Source: Alphaproteobacteria bacterium
GTDB taxonomy: Bacteria; Pseudomonadota; Alphaproteobacteria; UBA6615
Length of the DNA: 64,000 nt
Direction of reading: 5' to 3'
Assembly: GCA_965261975.1 (NCBI GenBank)
Contig: CBDHEC010000017.1
Span: forward strand, 1-64,000
Part shown: piece by piece, positions 19,266-32,439 of the stretch
Position numbering within the stretch: the first letter of the stretch is position 1
Layout: every line of letters starts with the position of its first letter
The notes under the pieces: generated by a model
What the model was told of the DNA's origin: nothing
Databases searched by the model: none
What the model saw: only the letters and a program-made list of their open reading frames with translations
Made by a program: the position numbers and the translations under genes

Positions 19266-20023
19266 ATGCGCGCGGTTCTCTTCACCATCCTTTTCTATGG
19301 ATGGACCGTCATTGCCGGCCTTCTCGTGTTGCCGCTTCTACTCGGCCCGCCGCGGCCACTTATGGCCTATAGCCGGTTCTGGATCCGCGTTGTGCTCTGG
19401 CTGTTGAGGAACACCGTGGGCCTGTCGCATCGGGTCGTCGGACGCGAACACATCCCCCCCGGGCCGGCGCTGTTCGCCGTCAAGCATCAATCGGCCTGGG
19501 ACACCCTGGCCATTAACCTGATCGTCCGCGATCCGGCCATTGTGCTGAAACGCGAGCTCACCTGGATTCCGCTCTTCGGCTGGTGCCTCATCCGCACACG
19601 CCAGATCGCCATCGACCGGGCCGGCGGCATGTCGGCTTTGCGCGGCATGGTCAAAGCCGCGCGCGCGGCACTCTCCGAGGGGCGCCCGATCGTCATCTAC
19701 CCCGAAGGAACCAGGGTCGCTCCGGGCGTGAAACAGCCCTATCACGCCGGAATATCGGCCCTCCACGGCGCCCTCGATGTTCCCGTTGTTCCGGTGGCCC
19801 TGAACTCCGGCGTGTTTTGGCCTCGACGATCGCTCAAACTGCGTCCCGGGGTCATCACGATCGAGTTCCTGCCCCCTTGCCCGCCGATATCCCGCGGCGC
19901 GAATTCATCGAAACGCTTGAAACGGCGATAGAAGATGCCTCGGATCGGTTGTACCGGGAAACCAATGTGACAACCGCCCGACCGAACGGCCGAGAGGCTG
20001 TGGATAAAGTTGTGGAAGATTGA
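19266..20023 (+). CDS. plsC: 1-acyl-sn-glycerol-3-phosphate acyltransferase, with -1 frameshift near 19875
   Basis: KHQSAWD, YPEGTR, VPVALNSG; FLPPLPADIPRREF is restored by adding one C in the C-run at 19872-19876. Confidence 0.8.
19999..20019 (-). promoter_or_regulatory. Tandem DnaA boxes
   Basis: TGTGGATAA (perfect TTATCCACA) at 19999-20007 and TGTGGAAGA (7/9) at 20011-20019. Confidence 0.6.
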
Positions 20024-20289
20024 CAGTCCGCCGCGGCGCCAAGCGAACGGGTAATTGGCGGCGAGTAATAATTACACATTGCGAGAACCGCTGGGCGTTG
20101 TTGCATCAATATTCTCTGTTTATTTCAGTTATCTTTCACGACTGCCGCAATAGCACGCTCACTTTCCCTTTCGGCCTGTTGCAAAATCCAGGCGAAAACC
20201 GTCATTTCCGCTTTGGCAGCATCGCGGAATGCTGGCGCACAACCTCTCAGCGCTTCCCGGAAGCATCCGGCCCATCGCAATTAACGTTC

Positions 20290-20298
20290 TGTGGATAA
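20290..20298 (-). promoter_or_regulatory. DnaA box
   Basis: Perfect TGTGGATAA, intergenic. Confidence 0.6.
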
Positions 20299-20364
20299 AC
20301 CATCGCCGGGTATGCCGTGTGCGGCAGAACCAATTGCAATGGTTCGGATATTAGCAAATACGAG

Positions 20365-21041
20365 TTATACCGACCCGGCGGGCGTGTGACGGGCCGCCCG
20401 CTTATGCAGACGACGCAGGGGGCGATCGGCGATCCCAAGTTCGTCGAGATGGCTCACCGTGTTGCTCAGATATTCCGTATTCGGCCCGCTTCGGCCATGT
20501 CCCTGCAATATCAGTCGTAACGCCTCGTCCTCGGACAATCGCCCGGCATACTGAACATGATTATGCGCCGCGGTGTAGTGTGGGCCCTGACCGTCTTGCT
20601 GCCGATCCGGGCCGTCACCCAGCGCGGCATGTAGACCCGCGTCACCATTTCGCGGCGAATCAGGTATTCGACGGCGCCCTCCGCATCCGCAGCCGCAACG
20701 CGATAGGCCACGCCGGTACAGCTGCCGCCATTGTCGAGCCCCAGCACCAGACCGGGCTGTTCTCGGGTCCCACGATAGACGTGGGAATAGACGCAGAAAG
20801 AGCGGTGATAGCCATGCACCTGCGCGCGCGCCCGGTCGATGAAAGGAAAATCAGGGCGCCACATCAAGGAGCCATAGCCGAAGATCCACAAATCCTCGCC
20901 CGGCGGATGGGTTTCCATGACCGCCCGCAACGTCCAGTCCAGTTCGTCTTCGGTCAGCTCATACTGATCGGTCAGATGCGTGAGATCGGGCTGTTCTTTC
21001 AACATCGTCATGGCGTCAGGATCGGTTCCGTTGCTGGTCAT
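20365..21041 (-). CDS. chaC: Glutathione-specific gamma-glutamylcyclotransferase (ChaC), with -1 frameshift near 20578
   Basis: LWIFGYGSLMW, HRSFC.YS..YRGT..PGLVLGL, RREM; shifted frame continues YTAAHNHVQYAGRL...GRSGPNTEYL...* to 20365; start uncertain. Confidence 0.85.
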
Positions 21042-29422: not shown

Positions 29423-30301
29423 TCAGACAATCGGTTGTGCGGCGAAATGTTGCGCCGGCGATACAATCGCGTCGCGCGCAGCAACCAGCTCGAGCTCCGT
29501 GCCGCCCCGCCGCGCCGTCTCCGAAAGAATAGCGAACACGGTGGCCACGCTGTGTTCCAGCGCCCCGGGAAGGGAGTTGCGTGCTGCGATGGAGGCTCCA
29601 AAGAGGGCGCTGAGCAGGTCCCCCGTACCATGCGGTTCCGACGGGAAAACCAGCCGGGGAGTCTCGACGCACCAGGCCTTCGAGTCGTCGAATGCGACCA
29701 CCGCGATAGTCTCCGGATTCAAATCTCGATGGTCGGCGCTGGTCACCATGACGGTGGCACCCGGTCGCATGTGCGACAAAAGCTTGCGCCCGGCTGCGAC
29801 AATGTCACTGACCGGCGCCGCCTTCAGTGCACCGGCTTCAAGACCACACAACAAGGACAATTCGTACAAGTTGGGCGTCGCGATGTCCGCGACGGGAAGC
29901 GCTGCCGTTCGGAAATGATCCGGCAGTGCGCCATCCACATACACGCCGGAACCGTCATCTCCCATTACGGGATCGCAGCAATAGACCATATCGGGATTTT
30001 CGCCCCGGACCTGGCCCACGGCGCGTGTGACCACCGCTGCAAGCGCCGGATTGCCGAGATACCCGGTGACCATCAGGTCACAATTGGGAAAAACCCCGCG
30101 ATGACCGAGACCGCGAATCAGGTCCGCGACGGTCTCGGGCGGCAAGACCTGACCGCCAACATCCGGATAGCCGGCATGGTTTGAGAGGACCGCCGTGGGG
30201 ACGGACCAGACTTCATGCCCAAGACACTGAAGCGGGAATGTGGCGGCCGAATTGCCGACATGGCCAAACACCACCTGAGACTGGATCGAAAGAATATGCA
30301 T
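29423..30301 (-). CDS. pdxY: Pyridoxal kinase
   Basis: ILSIQSQVVFGHVGNSAA, SNHAGY, TGYLG, CDPVMGD, TPNLYEL, GTGDL. Confidence 0.92.
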   Translation of the reverse strand: MHILSIQSQVVFGHVGNSAATFPLQCLGHEVWSVPTAVLSNHAGYPDVGGQVLPPETVADLIRGLGHRGVFPNCDLMVTGYLGNPALAAVVTRAVGQVRGENPDMVYCCDPVMGDDGSGVYVDGALPDHFRTAALPVADIATPNLYELSLLCGLEAGALKAAPVSDIVAAGRKLLSHMRPGATVMVTSADHRDLNPETIAVVAFDDSKAWCVETPRLVFPSEPHGTGDLLSALFGASIAARNSLPGALEHSVATVFAILSETARRGGTELELVAARDAIVSPAQHFAAQPIV

Positions 30302-30350
30302 CGCTGGGTATCGGTTTTGCGCTTGTCGCGGCGCCAGCACAAGAATTCGT

Positions 30351-30380
30351 TTGACCGACGCGAAACGCCATTGATACCTG
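30351..30380 (+). promoter_or_regulatory. Candidate sigma70 promoter of a plus-strand sRNA
   Basis: TTGACC (30351-30356), 18 nt, then TACCTG preceded by TGn; lacks the -7 T. Confidence 0.35.
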
Positions 30381-30386
30381 TCGAAT

Positions 30387-30462
30387 ATTGATCTGCCTGG
30401 ATGCGGAGCCCGGCCAAAGACGCCTGAGAAAGAGCCTGGTGCGAAAGCACCGGGCTCTTTTC
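30387..30462 (+). ncRNA. Candidate ~75-nt sRNA antisense to the 3' hairpin of the large RNA
   Basis: Orphan plus-strand terminator and upstream promoter-like sequence; body 30394-30427 repeats 30524-30552; 5' end inferred. Confidence 0.45.
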
Positions 30463-30552
30463 ATATCCCGATAGGTCTCGCACGACCCGATGCGCAGCTT
30501 GCGGAAATGAAGAAGGCGCCAGGTGCATGGACGCGGAGCCCGTGACGCCTGA
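30394..30552. repeat. Imperfect direct repeat pair (30394-30427 and 30524-30552)
   Basis: TGCCTGGATGCGGAGCCCG-GCCAAA-GACGCCTGA versus TGCATGGACGCGGAGCCCG-T-GACGCCTGA (17/19 plus 9/9 identical). Confidence 0.85.
30429..30462 (+). terminator. Intrinsic terminator, best on plus strand, possibly bidirectional
   Basis: AAAGAGCCTGGTGC-GAAA-GCACCGGGCTCTTT then T; the GAAA loop and U-G wobble both work on +. Confidence 0.8.
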
Positions 30553-30559
30553 CGCCTTC
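30505..30559 (-). terminator. Terminal hairpin / probable terminator of the large RNA
   Basis: RNA GAAGGCGUCAGG...CCUGGCGCCUUC (12 bp, one U-G) followed by UUCAUUU. Confidence 0.6.
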
Positions 30560-31380
30560 CTCGATCTTCCAACCCCGGAGTCACCCCCGGAACTTCAGAT
30601 CTTTCGGGTCCCACCCGCCGGGCTTGCGCCCCGCCGGCTTCGACCCAATACCCACATCGGCATCCAGCTTCTCATCGCTCCGCGCGTGGGACGCACCCCT
30701 GGCCGATACGTCGTCCATCGCGCTTCGCTTTTCCGGTATCGTCCGCTTTGACACGTCCCATACCGTCCCCGAAGGGATCGAAGCCTAGGTCAGCCGCCGT
30801 CCTGCAAACCCGTCCGATTGGTCGCCGCGGCTCCGAAGAACCGGGGTTTCCGACCGGCCGTCGTCTCGAATTCCTGGCCGGCGAGAGCCTGGATAACGAA
30901 ACGCTGCCGTCCTTCCTGCGCCCCGAGCCCGCCGAAGCTGGCATCCGGGCGGAGCGCGCGCTCCGAGGAGCTTGCGCTTCCGGAAAGACCGCTGGATTGC
31001 GCAACGGTGCCTTCCTTACCGGCCGACCTCTGGCTGTGTTCTTCCGAGGAAGCACACCTCCGTCCGGTCTGCCGACCGTGCCCGACCGTTGCATGGTTGC
31101 CCATGTATCGGACCGAACACATGAATGAACATCCACCGAGGCGATCGATCCCGAAGGATCATGTCCATCCGCCGACTTTCCCCCCGACCTGGCGTCACCT
31201 TGCGGCAACCCCGTTGATCCGGCGTTCGGTTCCCGTCGATCCGGCACGCCCCCTTGGTGACCGTTCCGAACCTGTCCGAGCCAACCGCAGAGCGGCTAAT
31301 CCGACCCGACAGAAACCCGTCGACACGCCAATGCGTGCACGGACATGTTCGACCGCTGCCGCAAAGGCGGCAATGTCCAA
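30505..31380 (-). ncRNA. Candidate large (~870 nt) highly structured non-coding RNA, family not recognised
   Basis: At least 10 hairpins with cUUCGg, cCUCGg or GNRA loops and G-U pairs on the minus strand only; a long-range helix; terminator-like 3' hairpin; no credible protein ORF; ends approximate. Confidence 0.7.
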
Positions 31381-31421
31381 TCGGCCCCGGCATCCAGTTT
31401 CTTGTGCAAAACTCGCCCGGT

Positions 31422-31451
31422 AGATCACAACTCCTCCACAGGTTTTCCACA
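31422..31451. promoter_or_regulatory. Phased DnaA-box-like array
   Basis: TTTTCCACA (31443-31451, fits TTWTNCACA), TCCTCCACA (31432-31440) and a weaker third box, at an 11-bp period. Confidence 0.45.
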
Positions 31452-31510
31452 CGCTACCCACGACACCGACGCTGTGCCCGTCGATCCAAGCTGTTGCGCG
31501 CGGCAGTGTC

Positions 31511-31540
31511 ATTGACGAAACGGGGGGCGGGGGTCTAAAT
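31511..31540 (+). promoter_or_regulatory. Candidate sigma70 promoter of sdhCDAB
   Basis: ATTGAC-N18-CTAAAT, similar to the alphaproteobacterial CTTGAC-N17-CTATAT. Confidence 0.55.
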
Positions 31541-31663
31541 CTGCTTTCTAGAAATACATACGCACGTGACCGTCACGAACGACTGTTTGACGGCGCGCGG
31601 CACACGGAAAACCACCGGAACCATTTCCCTGGTTCCGGCTTTGCAGCAAAGTCAGGGGGCATC

Positions 31664-32059
31664 ATGGCGACCGACAACAGACCGCTATCGCCGCACCTTC
31701 AGGTCTATCGCCCGCAGTTCACATCGGTGCTGTCGATCCTTCATCGCATCACGGGTATCGGCCTCGCCGTCGGCACACTGCTTTTGGTCTGGTGGCTGAT
31801 CGCCGCCGCCGCAGGGCCCACGGAATTTGACGCGGTGCAGAAATTCATTGGTTCGGTCATCGGGCGAATACTGCTGCTCGCCTGGAGCTTCGCGCTCTAC
31901 TATCACCTCTGCAACGGCATCCGGCATCTGGTCTGGGACGCCGGCAAGGGATTCGAACTGAGTACCGCATTCGCTTCGGCCTGGCTGGTGGTCGTCGCCG
32001 CGAGCGTTCTCACCGTCATCAGCTGGGTCGCTGGTTACGCCAGCCTCGGAGGGCTCTAG
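31664..32059 (+). CDS. sdhC: Succinate dehydrogenase cytochrome b556 subunit
   Basis: RPLSPHLQVY, SILHRITG, HLCNGIRHL.WD.G.G. Confidence 0.97.
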   Translation: MATDNRPLSPHLQVYRPQFTSVLSILHRITGIGLAVGTLLLVWWLIAAAAGPTEFDAVQKFIGSVIGRILLLAWSFALYYHLCNGIRHLVWDAGKGFELSTAFASAWLVVVAASVLTVISWVAGYASLGGL

Positions 32060-32061
32060 AG

Positions 32062-32439
32062 ATGAACATGCGCTCCCCCCTGAGCCGCGCACGCGGCCTC
32101 GGATCCGCCAAGAGCGGCACCAACCATTGGTGGGCACAGCGACTCACGGCGCTGGCGTTGATCCCGCTCGTGATCTGGTTCGTCGTGTCCATGATTATTG
32201 TCACCGGCGCCGACCATGCAGCGGCCGTCGACTTCATCAGCAGCCCGGTCAACTCGGTTCTGCTTATCCTCCTGATCGTCGCCACATTCCATCATGGGCA
32301 ACTCGGCCTGACGGTGGTGATCGAGGACTACATCCACACACGCTGGCTCGAAGTGGGCCTGATCATCGCGGTCAAAGGCGCGGCCATTTTCCTTGGCGTC
32401 GCCTCTGTCTACGCCGTGATCGCAATCGCATTGAATTAA
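32062..32439 (+). CDS. sdhD: Succinate dehydrogenase membrane anchor
   Basis: [27 protein letters not shown]. Confidence 0.96.

What the first reader, a model, noticed from the sequence alone, without database searches (positions are those of the whole stretch)
30505..31380. Candidate ~870-nt highly structured ncRNA between pdxY and sdhC, with no recognised family
Seen in the sequence: the minus strand is packed with hairpins closed by stable RNA tetraloops. cUUCGg occurs at 31147-31160 (GAUCC-UUCG-GGAUC), 30927-30942, 30828-30843 (CGGUUC-UUCG-GAGCCG) and 30766-30777. cCUCGg occurs at 31035-31056 and 30954-30977. GNRA loops occur at 31194-31209 (GUUGCC-GCAA-GGUGAC), 31092-31105, 30620-30631 and 30575-30590 (CCGGGG-GUGA-CUCCGG). 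On the plus strand these loops are unremarkable (CGAA, CGAG, UUGC, UCAC) and the G-U pairs become A-C mismatches, so the signal is strand-specific. There is a 5' multi-stem at 31341-31378, a 9-bp long-range helix (31020-31028 with 30852-30860) enclosing a multibranch domain, and a 12-bp terminal hairpin with a U-rich tail (30505-30559). The stems differ in sequence, so this is not a REP array, and the overlapping ORFs are not protein-like. Established knowledge: large ornate bacterial RNAs of this size class exist (GOLLD, ROOL, OLE). Inference: this is a stand-alone large structured RNA in a core-genome position of an alphaproteobacterium, possibly a new class.
Basis: partly seen in the sequence, partly recalled or inferred. 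Interest (0 to 1): 0.92.

Follow-up and report, generated by a model that had tools for sequence, protein, structure and literature searches.

The report
New large structured RNA with partner sRNA
Between the sdhC and pdxY genes of an uncultured marine alphaproteobacterium lies a roughly 900-base, heavily folded, non-coding RNA gene that matches no described RNA family, is kept throughout its bacterial order, and sits next to a small RNA gene complementary to its last hairpin.

Summary
Window ~30500-31400 (minus strand) encodes a ~900-nt structured non-coding RNA.

- **No coding signal:** no ORF is conserved, and 55 of 60 indels are not multiples of three.
- **No known family:** Rfam 15 gives no match for the window or for 7 divergent homologues.
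- **Strand-specific structure:** alignment-fold z-scores are -18 to -21 on the sense strand and +0.5 to -3.4 on the antisense strand, in three clades.
- **Covariation:** 64 of 235 predicted pairs change on both sides, against 33 ± 3 in shuffles.
- **Closing helix:** a covarying long-range helix (31338-31325 with 30663-30650) closes a ~680-nt multi-domain body.
- **Distribution:** 43 of 46 genomes of one uncultured marine alphaproteobacterial order have it, nearly always upstream of sdhC on the opposite strand. It was not found in 398 other sampled genomes of the class.
- **Expression:** metatranscriptome contigs from four studies cover it, while pdxY is uncovered and sdhC barely covered.

New here: a convergent ~85-nt sRNA gene (plus strand, 30381-30465). 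Its seed is complementary to the near-invariant loop of the large RNA's terminator hairpin, and the two sites co-vary between clades. The promoter region carries three DnaA-box-like TGTGGA repeats.

Function is unknown. The 5' end, the transcribed strand and the pairing are inferred, not measured.

The parts
30500..31400 (-). Large structured non-coding RNA, about 900 nt here and 0.6-1.13 kb in relatives. The 5' end is inferred near 31400 and has not been mapped. The 3' end is the U-tract after the block D hairpin.
   Evidence: Alignment-fold z-scores are -18.8, -18.3 and -21.1 in three clades, against +0.5, -1.0 and -3.4 for the antisense strand. Covariation is shown. There is no conserved ORF and no Rfam match. 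RNA contigs cover 30584-31327.
31396..31451 (-). Block A, a conserved promoter or regulatory region. Three 11-bp direct repeats (TGTGGAAAACC, TGTGGAGGAGT, TGTGATCTACC) lie at 31451-31419. The invariant GAGTTTTGCACA(A/G)GAA follows at about 31415-31398. The first repeat resembles a DnaA box; the consensus TTATCCACA is recalled.
   Evidence: These columns are invariant in 25 sequences from several genera. One clade has the exact TGTGGATAA (row L027). The tool's sigma-70 scan called no promoter here, so the promoter type is unknown.
31325..31338 (-). 5' strand of the long-range helix LR1 (GCACGCAUUGGCGU). It can alternatively form a local hairpin with 31328-31323.
   Evidence: Helix 3. Across genera 85.2% of cells pair, against 27-52% when partners are slid. 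6 of 13 pairs change on both sides, and 30 cells do so against 10.9 ± 2.8 in shuffles (0 of 500). The local hairpin also covaries.
30650..30663 (-). 3' strand of LR1 (AUGCCGAUGUGGGU).
   Evidence: The changes AUUG to GCAA on the 5' strand are matched by changes on this strand in the 1.1-kb clade.
30977..31317 (-). Variable middle domain, helices 5 to 21. It is missing from a natural 598-nt variant.
   Evidence: The alignment of L017 (identical to L034, from a record titled as a complete chromosome) lacks this stretch. Helices 5, 6, 9, 10, 11 and 12 each have 3-8 pairs changed on both sides.
30862..30903 (-). Block B stem-loop. A covarying outer stem encloses the near-invariant CCAGGCUCUCGCCGGCCAGGAAU.
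   Evidence: Helix 24 has 4 of 7 pairs changed on both sides, and 6 of the 7 pairs of helix 25 never vary. The pattern with at most 2 mismatches was found in 36 of 46 genomes of the order.
30682..30723 (-). Block C hairpin with the invariant GACGUAUCGGCCAGGGGUGCGUC. Its loop is GGCCAGG.
   Evidence: Helix 32 has 16 pairs, 10 of which never vary. BLAST found 96% identity across genera.
30500..30562 (-). Block D, a 12-bp terminator-like hairpin with a near-invariant 24-nt loop (CGUCACGGGCUCCGCGUCCAUGCA) and a U-rich tail. It is the proposed docking site of the sRNA.
   Evidence: 52 nt are 100% identical between genera. 18 of the 22 pairs of helix 36 never vary. It is the best duplex site for the sRNA seed in 46 of 47 pairs.
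30381..30465 (+). Convergent small RNA gene. It has a single-stranded seed (UGCCUGGAUGCGGAGCCCG at 30394-30412 and GACGCCUGA at 30419-30427), a terminator hairpin at 30431-30458, and a U-tract.
   Evidence: Own covariance model R1 scores 90.6 bits here. 10 of 16 pairs change on both sides. The stem's G-U pairs exist only in the plus sense; for example one pair is U-G in 17 of 44 sequences. The repeat finder family D1 links the seed to block D.
30351..30379 (+). Promoter-like element of the sRNA: TTGACC, a 16-17 nt spacer, then GATACC or ATACCT. It lies back to back with the pdxY upstream region.
   Evidence: The sequence is and is conserved in 55 of 62 distinct loci, including clades without pdxY downstream. 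The tool's stricter scan did not call it.
31664..32059 (+). sdhC, the divergent neighbour.
   Evidence: Pfam Sdh_cyt, E = 1.8e-34. It lies upstream and divergent in 29 of 30 loci.
29423..30299 (-). pdxY, the downstream neighbour on the same strand.
   Evidence: Pfam Phos_pyr_kin, E = 6.9e-16. It is downstream in 25 of 30 loci and was not found in L023, L024 or L026.

Best explanation
This is a stand-alone gene for a large, abundant, trans-acting structured RNA. It belongs to a previously undescribed class confined to one order of uncultured marine Alphaproteobacteria.

**Proposed transcript (inferred).** Transcription starts just downstream of a conserved regulatory block carrying three TGTGGA repeats. 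It runs about 900 nt on the minus strand and stops at a hairpin with a U-tract (block D).

**Architecture (shown by covariation).** A 13-bp long-range helix closes a body of about 680 nt made of several hairpin-rich domains. Three sequence islands, blocks B, C and D, are almost invariant. I read them as contact surfaces for a protein, another RNA, or other copies of the same RNA.

**Partner sRNA.** A separately transcribed ~85-nt sRNA converges on the locus. It can form about 25 bp with the loop and upper stem of block D.

**Most likely working model (inferred).** The large RNA is the scaffold of a ribonucleoprotein or RNA-only assembly with a housekeeping role. The sRNA binds its 3' hairpin either to control its 3' processing and stability, or to be sequestered there.

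**Status of each step.**
- Shown: non-coding nature, RNA-level selection on the minus strand, order-wide conservation, presence in RNA libraries, complementarity and co-variation of the two sites.
- Inferred: the transcript ends, pairing in the cell, and the function.
For: 1. **Structure under selection, on one strand only.** RNAalifold energy against column-shuffled alignments gives z = -18.8 (18 sequences, 25 shuffles), -18.3 (19 sequences, 15 shuffles) and -21.1 (20 sequences, 15 shuffles). The antisense strand gives +0.5, -1.0 and -3.4.
2. **Covariation.** 96.4% of 4213 cells are paired, against 37-48% when partners are slid. 64 of 235 pairs change on both sides, against 33.2 ± 3.2 in shuffles (0 of 500).
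3. **The long-range helix covaries between genera**.
4. **Not coding**.
5. **Not in Rfam 15**.
6. **Conservation.** 43 of 46 genomes of the order have it, 27 of 29 high-quality ones, and 15 of 18 genera. A diverged copy was then found in a 44th genome. It is single-copy in its own genome.
7. **RNA-library contigs.** Contigs of four studies cover 30584-31327. Summed depths reach 112, 28, 44 and 2823, while pdxY is 0 in all four and sdhC is at most 9.9. The contigs include pieces 95-97.5% identical to the window, such as 239 nt with 6 differences.
8. **The sRNA.** It has a conserved promoter-like element, a seed and a covarying plus-sense terminator. Its best site on the whole large RNA is block D in 46 of 47 pairs, with mean energy -53.2 against -41.8 kcal/mol for the next-best site.
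9. **Co-variation of the two sites.** They switch together from GGGCUCC to GGACCCC in four loci of the divergent genera (L030, L077, L121, L150). Differences between them are G-U-compatible in the proposed strand pairing: it pairs better than the opposite orientation in 63 of 69 loci, equally in 5, and worse in 1.
Against: - No strand-specific or end-mapping data are available. Contigs show presence in RNA libraries only.
- Depth comparisons between genes are weak, because the runs were chosen for holding this stretch (tool caveat).
- No recognisable sigma-70 promoter was called for either RNA.
- The four laid runs gave no contig over block A, block D or the sRNA.
- The 63-of-69 count is inflated by shared ancestry. 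Counted by eye as substitution events in the table, roughly 8 are wobble-compatible and 4-5 are not, and the latter sit at the 3' edge of the site.
- Co-variation of the two sites would also arise if both were bound by one protein.
- One clade (L027/L055) has the large RNA but no downstream sRNA copy within 1.5 kb. One genome of the order (G024) shows no element at either of its two sdhC loci.
- Nothing here indicates what the RNA does.
Confidence: 0.75

Rival explanations
1. The large RNA is mainly a sponge or decoy for the sRNA. On this reading the sRNA regulates other mRNAs through its invariant seed, and the block D loop mimics their target sites and titrates it. The rest of the RNA only provides stability and abundance.
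For: The seed and the loop are far more conserved than pairing with each other alone would need. 52 nt are 100% identical between genera, and 18 of the 22 helix 36 pairs never vary. That suggests a third constraint, such as other targets. The RNA appears abundant in RNA libraries. The sRNA has the usual build of a trans-acting sRNA.
Against: A sponge would not need 0.6-1.1 kb of covarying architecture, a closing helix, and two further invariant islands. No other exact copy of the 13-nt target motif lies outside a coding frame in the genome: there are 3 exact matches, 2 in this locus and 1 inside a purN-like ORF. One clade keeps the large RNA without a nearby sRNA.
Confidence: 0.15
2. The element is a giant cis-acting 5' leader of pdxY, such as a riboswitch or attenuator that controls read-through into the pyridoxal kinase gene.
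For: pdxY lies downstream on the same strand in 25 of 30 loci. The element ends in a terminator-like hairpin that could act as an attenuator.
Against: A convergent plus-strand sRNA gene with its own terminator lies between the element and pdxY. pdxY has its own conserved upstream CTTG-containing region. The element is retained in the clade where pdxY is not downstream (L023, L024, L026). RNA contigs cover the element while pdxY has depth 0.
Confidence: 0.04
3. The conservation acts on DNA or on protein. The element would then be a DnaA-binding or replication-control locus, a decayed or unusual protein gene, or a mobile element.
For: Block A carries DnaA-box-like repeats, and one clade has the exact TGTGGATAA. 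Long ORFs are present in the high-G+C copies.
Against: Compensatory changes, G-U pairs and the folding signal exist on one strand only. The box-like repeats occupy only about 30 bp. There is no GC-skew switch in the window. No ORF is conserved, and 55 of 60 indels break the reading frame. Pfam finds nothing in 5 ORFs. The element is single-copy and syntenic.
Confidence: 0.02

Closest known systems
OLE RNA (ornate, large, extremophilic; Firmicutes)
   Same: It is a non-coding RNA of several hundred nucleotides with an intricate covarying structure. It is single-copy and highly expressed, has long been of unclear function, and is restricted to one lineage. The abstract of PMC3413148 (listing) states high expression and a protein partner.
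   Different: There is no match to any Rfam model. The phylum and habitat differ. It is not in an operon with partner-protein genes. It has a dedicated partner sRNA, which I do not know for OLE (recalled).
GOLLD and ROOL RNAs
   Same: Size class (about 0.6-0.8 kb, recalled), many tetraloop-capped helices, no coding potential and unknown biochemical function. They form RNA-only homo-oligomers according to the abstract of PMC12286853 (listing). That is one possible use for the invariant loops seen here.
   Different: There is no Rfam match. GOLLD and ROOL are often in prophages or near tRNAs (recalled). This RNA sits at a fixed core-genome position beside sdhC in 29 of 30 loci. Oligomerisation was not tested here.
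Antisense or kissing-loop pairs of a long RNA and a short RNA, such as ColE1 RNA II/RNA I, and sRNA-sponge pairs
   Same: A short RNA with a single-stranded seed is complementary to a hairpin loop of a much longer structured RNA encoded next to it.
   Different: The two genes do not overlap; 40-130 variable bases separate them, so the pairing is in trans. There is no sign of a replication origin, and no toxin ORF as in type I toxin-antitoxin pairs.
Universal structured RNAs: RNase P RNA, tmRNA and 6S RNA
   Same: It is a conserved, abundant, structured housekeeping-type RNA present throughout a lineage.
   Different: RNase P RNA (2 matches) and the alphaproteobacterial two-piece tmRNA are found elsewhere in the same genome. 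So this is not a divergent copy of either. 6S RNA was not found, but nothing here resembles it.

Membership tests
Any Rfam 15 family, including OLE, GOLLD, ROOL, HEARO, raiA, RNase P, tmRNA, 6S and group I/II introns | Match to the family's covariance model at or above its gathering score | tested here: not met
   There are 0 matches in the 64-kb window. In 30300-31700 the 8 matches at E <= 10 all fall far below gathering; the best is 22.7 bits against 55. Seven divergent homologue loci gave one spurious match, 27.8 bits against 66. That these named families are in Rfam 15 is recalled.
Large structured ('ornate') bacterial non-coding RNAs, a descriptive category | Several hundred nucleotides long with no conserved reading frame | tested here: met
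   Lengths are 598-1127 nt in 62 distinct sequences. There is no conserved ORF. 55 of 60 indels are not multiples of three.
Large structured ('ornate') bacterial non-coding RNAs, a descriptive category | Complex conserved secondary structure supported by compensatory changes | tested here: met
   64 of 235 pairs change on both sides, against 33.2 ± 3.2 in shuffles (0 of 500). z-scores are -18 to -21 in three clades. The long-range helix covaries.
Large structured ('ornate') bacterial non-coding RNAs, a descriptive category | Expressed as a discrete RNA on the predicted strand | tested here: inconclusive
   Contigs from RNA libraries of four studies cover 30584-31327 while pdxY has depth 0. Contigs give neither the strand nor the ends.
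Trans-acting base-pairing sRNA (the plus-strand partner) | Own promoter, unstructured seed, intrinsic terminator with U-tract | tested here: met
   A conserved TTGACC-N16/17-GATACC element is present. The seed is unpaired in the consensus fold, and in the terminator stem 10 of 16 pairs change on both sides, with G-U pairs only in the plus sense. The promoter is inferred from sequence; the tool's scan did not call it.
Trans-acting base-pairing sRNA (the plus-strand partner) | Conserved complementarity to its target, kept through change | tested here: met
   Block D is the best site in 46 of 47 pairs. 67 of 69 loci have a copy within 3 mismatches (my count of the table; my note says 66). The two sites switch together in four loci of the divergent genera (L030, L077, L121, L150). 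Pairing in the cell is not shown.
Type I toxin-antitoxin pair | A small conserved toxin ORF on the long RNA | tested here: not met
   No ORF is conserved in position or frame. The ATG inside block D opens a frame that runs through the variable spacer.
Riboswitch or leader of pdxY | Continuous with, and always followed by, the regulated gene | tested here: not met
   A convergent sRNA gene and terminator lie in between. pdxY is absent downstream in L023, L024 and L026.
Chromosomal replication origin or DnaA-titration locus | A cluster of DnaA boxes with an AT-rich unwinding region and a GC-skew switch | tested here: not met
   There is one box-like array of about 30 bp. The region is 62-67% G+C, and GC skew stays negative across the window. 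DnaA binding cannot be tested with these tools.

The most novel reading that the evidence does not exclude
This is a two-RNA system of a kind not described before. An order-wide, roughly 1-kb ornate RNA acts as a ribozyme, a ribonucleoprotein core or a self-assembling RNA particle. A dedicated, co-evolving sRNA controls its amount or maturation by docking on its terminator hairpin. A DnaA-box-like repeat array next to the succinate dehydrogenase operon ties its transcription to the cell cycle or to respiratory state.
Probability: 0.3. Interest if true: 0.93.

Novelty: categorically new. Interest (0 to 1): 0.86.

Why it matters
Only a handful of bacterial non-coding RNAs above 500 nt with elaborate conserved structures are known. 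Each one (RNase P, group II introns, OLE, GOLLD, ROOL) has taught something about what RNA can do. This candidate has unusually clean evidence:

- 62 distinct sequences that span 40-78% G+C;
- natural deletion variants that mark out a core;
- a covarying closing helix;
- presence in RNA libraries of four studies;
- a built-in handle for experiments, the partner sRNA and its docking loop.

Its hosts are uncultured marine bacteria, so it could only have been found by sequence analysis of this sort. If confirmed, it would add a new family to Rfam. It would also give a defined target for structural work and the first case I know of a large ornate RNA with a dedicated antisense-like regulator.

I call it "categorically new" in the sense of a new RNA class with no detectable relative. 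It still fits the loose descriptive group of large structured bacterial RNAs, and its mechanism is not yet known to be new.

Tried and rejected
- **Parts without read cover.** The four laid runs gave no contig over block A (31396-31451), block D (30500-30562) or the sRNA (30381-30465). Several contigs end near 30683-30688 and 31317-31327. These places coincide with the edges of conserved blocks, where assembly graphs branch, so I draw no conclusion about transcript ends.
- **Mutual information.** MI with APC correction on the 62-sequence alignment was dominated by clade-specific columns and was useless for finding helices. It did flag one LR1 pair as 100% canonical.
- **Promoter and terminator scan.** It called none of the features discussed. 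I could not fit block A to sigma-70, sigma-54, sigma-32 or ECF consensus sequences recalled from memory.
- **DnaA side-track.**
  - The tandem TGTGGA pattern is not enriched in the genome: 7 matches against 5 for the reversed control.
  - Similar tandems lie at window 19999-20022 and at G000:C56:43026.
  - dnaA (G000:C4) has no box upstream.
  - There is no GC-skew switch in the window.
  - So the DnaA reading of block A rests on resemblance only.
- **Other targets of the sRNA.** The 13-nt motif has 3 exact matches in the genome: 2 in this locus and 1 inside a purN-like ORF. With one mismatch there are 28 matches against 46 for the control.
- **sRNA outside the order.** Model R1 on 151 genomes of the class scored 90.6 and 46 bits in the two family genomes and at most 36 bits elsewhere. 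The other hits were mostly terminator-like, some on both strands of one place.
- **Large RNA outside the order.** BLAST found it in 0 of 24 other families. The block B pattern hit 20 of 398 other genomes, against 2 hits for the reversed control. The 10 loci that were fetched, out of 23 such hits, had no colinear blocks C or D, so I read them as chance matches in G+C-rich DNA. The other 13 hits were not inspected.
It could not be confirmed in the other clades.
- **Direct repeat 30658-30672 / 31388-31402.** It is not conserved beyond close relatives.
- **L014.** Its apparent deletion contains a run of N, which is an assembly gap, so I did not use it as a deletion variant.
- **Literature.**
  - Searches (listings and abstracts only) turned up nothing on this RNA.
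  - Passages of PMC5069720 and PMC7368042 do not mention it.
  - Supplements were not opened. They could hold lists of unnamed abundant marine transcripts.
- Protein homology searches, structure prediction and complex prediction were not used, because no protein is involved.
Full report
**1. What is there**

Read on the minus strand, window 30500-31400 is packed with hairpins capped by UUCG, CUCG and GNRA loops. The stretch lies in a 1.3-kb gap between two genes:
- pdxY (29423-30299, minus strand; Pfam Phos_pyr_kin, E = 6.9e-16);
- sdhC (31664-32059, plus strand; Pfam Sdh_cyt, E = 1.8e-34).

Folded alone, the minus strand of 30500-31340 reaches -425.7 kcal/mol, z = -5.93 against 20 dinucleotide shuffles. 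The plus strand reaches -325.2, z = -1.63.

**2. Not coding and not a known RNA**

- Five stop-to-stop frames in the region have no Pfam match.
- In 27 homologous loci no frame is consistently open. In a relative whose element is 40% G+C, the longest frame in 1147 nt is 73 codons.
- Within the genus, 55 of 60 distinct gap runs are not multiples of three. Variable sites are spread evenly over the three phases: 0.63, 0.67 and 0.70.
- Rfam 15 (4227 families) gives nothing at gathering score in the whole window.
- In 30300-31700 it gives only chance-level matches at E <= 10, the best at E = 0.15 on a terminator hairpin.
- Seven divergent homologue loci gave only one spurious plant miRNA match.
- RNase P RNA and the alphaproteobacterial tmRNA are found elsewhere in the same genome. 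So this is not a divergent copy of either.

**3. Conservation**

- BLAST of the element found it in 33 of 36 other genomes of the same family and in 0 of 24 other families of the class.
- It is single-copy in its own genome.
- The family is the whole order in the collection held, 46 species genomes. The 3' half matches in 43 of 46 genomes, in 27 of 29 high-quality genomes, and in 15 of 18 genera.
- Of the three genomes without a match:
  - G014 turned out to have a diverged but complete copy upstream of sdhC;
  - G024 has two sdhC loci without it;
  - G020 (79% complete) gave no sdhC hit.
- An exact-pattern scan for the 3' hairpin found 31 species genomes. All are uncultured MAGs titled Alphaproteobacteria, Rhodospirillaceae or Proteobacteria bacterium, several with marine sample names.
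- The same scan found 44 metagenome contigs. Together these give 62 distinct full-length sequences of 598-1127 nt.
- The block B pattern hit 20 of 398 genomes elsewhere in the class. The 10 loci fetched had none of the other blocks. I write "not found in those searched".

Conservation is patchy in the way structural RNAs are. Four colinear islands are nearly invariant between genera, and one 52-nt stretch is 100% identical. The sequence between them drifts. sdhC is the divergent upstream neighbour in 29 of 30 loci. pdxY follows on the same strand in 25 of 30.

**4. Structure**

Three clades were aligned separately. Their consensus fold energies lie 18-21 standard deviations below column-shuffled alignments on the sense strand, and within about 3 on the antisense strand.

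| Clade | Sequences | Length (nt) | z, sense | z, antisense |
|---|---|---|---|---|
| I | 18 | ~970 | -18.8 | +0.5 |
| II | 19 | ~925 | -18.3 | -1.0 |
| III | 20 | ~1120 | -21.1 | -3.4 |

For the 18 genus-level sequences, the tool's RNAalifold structure has 235 pairs in 36 helices. Counted on the MAFFT alignment:
- 96.4% of cells are standard pairs, against 37-48% when partners are slid by 1-3 columns;
- 64 pairs change on both sides, against 33.2 ± 3.2 in shuffles (0 of 500) and 18-28 when slid;
- 185 cells change on both sides, against 59.4 ± 7.1.

The most telling feature is a long-range helix, LR1, between 31338-31325 and 30663-30650. It closes about 680 nt.
- On a 25-sequence alignment spanning several genera it is 85.2% paired, against 27-52% when slid.
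- 6 of its 13 pairs change on both sides, and 30 cells do so against 10.9 ± 2.8 (0 of 500).
- Four consecutive positions read AUUG in the genus and GCAA in the 1.1-kb clade, and the partner strand changes to match.
- The same 5' strand can form a local hairpin, which also covaries: 88.2% of 372 cells are paired, against 79.1% of 793 for LR1 on the cruder 62-sequence alignment.
- Some lineages keep only LR1 (L002, L007, L057).
- I read the two as alternative conformers, perhaps a co-transcriptional intermediate and the final state. This is inference.

Inside LR1 lie four parts:
- a variable middle domain (about 31317-30977);
- a UUCG hairpin;
- a domain containing block C.

A natural 598-nt variant, from a record titled as a complete chromosome, lacks the middle domain. 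The core is therefore the 5' strand of LR1 plus the 3' half.

**5. Expression**

A word index of public runs listed 22 RNA runs from marine, aquatic and salt-marsh metatranscriptomes holding 6-11% of the sampled words. Contigs of four of them, each from a different study, were laid on 29800-32200.
- They cover 30584-31327.
- Summed depths reach 112 (X1), 28 (X4), 44 (X9) and 2823 (X2).
- pdxY has depth 0 in all four, and sdhC at most 9.9.
- Long pieces are close to the window: 239 nt with 6 differences, 200 nt with 5, 399 nt with 15, and 635 nt with 31.

DNA contamination would cover the flanks as well, so the element is present as RNA. Three caveats apply:
- the runs were picked for holding this stretch;
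- depths sum over organisms;
- contigs show neither strand nor ends.

**6. Ends and promoter (inferred)**

The 3' end is block D. It is a 12-bp stem with a 24-nt loop and a U-rich tail (30562-30500).

Upstream, conservation starts abruptly at 31451 with three 11-bp direct repeats: TGTGGAAAACC, TGTGGAGGAGT and TGTGATCTACC. The invariant GAGTTTTGCACA(A/G)GAA follows. I place the start of transcription just after this, near 31400.

The first repeat is one base from the DnaA-box consensus (recalled), and one clade has the exact TGTGGATAA. The tool's sigma-70 scan calls nothing here, and the motif is not enriched in the genome. The regulator is therefore unknown. An OmpR-type activator would fit the 11-bp phasing equally well.

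**7. The partner sRNA (new here)**

Beyond block D is a second hairpin (30431-30458).
- Its G-U pairs exist only when it is read on the plus strand. For example, one pair is U-G in 17 of 44 sequences.
- Its U-tract is on the plus strand in the clade where the two sides differ.
- Upstream of it on the plus strand is a conserved TTGACC-N16/17-GATACC element (30351-30379). It is found in 55 of 62 loci; 5 of the 7 misses have under 200 nt of flank.
- It is kept even in the clade that lacks pdxY.
- The implied ~85-nt RNA has an unpaired 5' half and a terminator in which 10 of 16 pairs change on both sides.
- A covariance model built from it scores 90.6 bits here, 46 bits in another genus of the order, and at most 36 bits (terminator-like hits) in 149 other genomes of the class.

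The unpaired half contains UGCCUGGAUGCGGAGCCCG and GACGCCUGA. These are complementary to the loop and upper stem of block D. The repeat finder picked up the first independently, at 89% over 19 nt.

RNAduplex places the best site for the seed on the whole large RNA at block D in 46 of 47 distinct pairs. The mean energy is -53.2 kcal/mol, against -41.8 for the next-best site. Shuffled seeds gave means of -20 to -38.

In 69 distinct loci with enough flank, all but L027 and L065 hold a downstream copy of the 13-nt loop core within 3 mismatches (my count of the table). Four loci of the divergent genera (L030, L077, L121, L150) have switched both sites from GGGCUCC to GGACCCC.

Where the two sites differ, the difference is mostly G-U-compatible if the large RNA is read on the minus strand and the sRNA on the plus strand. 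This orientation pairs better than the opposite one in 63 of 69 loci, equally in 5, and worse in 1. These loci are related. Counted by eye as events, the bias is roughly 8 against 4-5. So this supports real base-pairing only moderately, and a shared protein partner is not excluded.

**8. How it most likely works**

- Shown: an order-wide, single-copy, non-coding, strand-specifically structured element that is present in RNA libraries. It has three invariant islands and a co-varying complementary sRNA next door.
- Inferred: it is a stand-alone trans-acting RNA, because it has its own regulatory block and terminator and persists without pdxY.
- Inferred: the invariant loops are contact surfaces.
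- Inferred: the sRNA docks on the 3' hairpin.

My preferred model is a ribonucleoprotein or RNA-only scaffold with a housekeeping role. On this model the sRNA controls its 3' processing or stability, or the RNA in turn sequesters the sRNA. I give about 0.85 to "real large structured RNA of a new class". I give about 0.5-0.6 to pairing in the cell, and much less to any particular function.

**9. Comparison and novelty**

In size, ornateness, abundance and lineage restriction it resembles OLE, GOLLD and ROOL. It matches none of their models, nor any other Rfam model.

It also differs from them in three ways:
- it sits at a fixed core-genome site;
- it has a partner sRNA;
- its hosts are uncultured marine Alphaproteobacteria.

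Five literature searches and passages of two papers on marine metatranscriptome ncRNAs gave no description of it. Supplements were not seen.

I rate it a new RNA class.

Noticed in passing
window 19990-20510: A ~490-bp gap with no ORF of 100 aa or more lies between 20024 and 20510. It holds two exact TGTGGATAA (DnaA-box-like) sites at 19999 and 20290, and the first is followed by a second TGTGGA, as in block A. GC skew does not switch here.
   Followed up: partly
G000:C56:43026-43042 (L141 about 1526-1680): Another intergenic tandem, TGTGGATAATTTGTGGG, lies about 140 nt from a TTTTCCACA box. It may belong to the same regulon as block A. The neighbouring genes were not identified, because my Pfam call failed on the coordinates.
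   Followed up: partly
G000:C57:205801-206172 and G000:C11:8227-8639: The genome has two full-length RNase P RNA matches (327.8 and 284 bits). This suggests either a second organism in the bin (contamination is 2.81%) or a true duplication.
   Followed up: no
G000, whole genome: 6S RNA (RF00013) was not found at E <= 0.001 in this 94.6%-complete genome, although the model does find it in Caulobacter. The other genomes of the order were not checked.
   Followed up: no
window 31614-31639: A 10-bp G+C-rich hairpin with a T-run on the minus strand lies in the sdhC leader, about 25 nt before the sdhC start codon. It may be a leader structure of sdhC or a terminator shielding it from upstream minus-strand transcription.
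   Followed up: no
G061:C426:1482-1504, G025:C178:129-151, G032:C14:2903-2925: Three genomes of the order have a second near-match to the block B pattern on another contig. These could be second copies or strain mixtures in the bins.
   Followed up: no
G024:C45 (L151, L152): One genus of the order has two sdhC paralogue loci. The large RNA is upstream of neither, so it is a possible natural loss.
   Followed up: partly
window 30658-30672 and 31388-31402: There is a 15-nt direct repeat, AGAA(G/A)CUGGAUGCCG in RNA sense. One copy is near the inferred 5' end and the other just before the 3' strand of LR1. It is seen only in the closest relatives.
   Followed up: partly
L027/L055 (a genus whose element is 78% G+C): This clade keeps the large RNA with an altered block D loop (GGAUCCCGCGUCC). 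It has no sRNA copy within 1.5 kb downstream, and pdxY lies about 960 nt away.
   Followed up: partly
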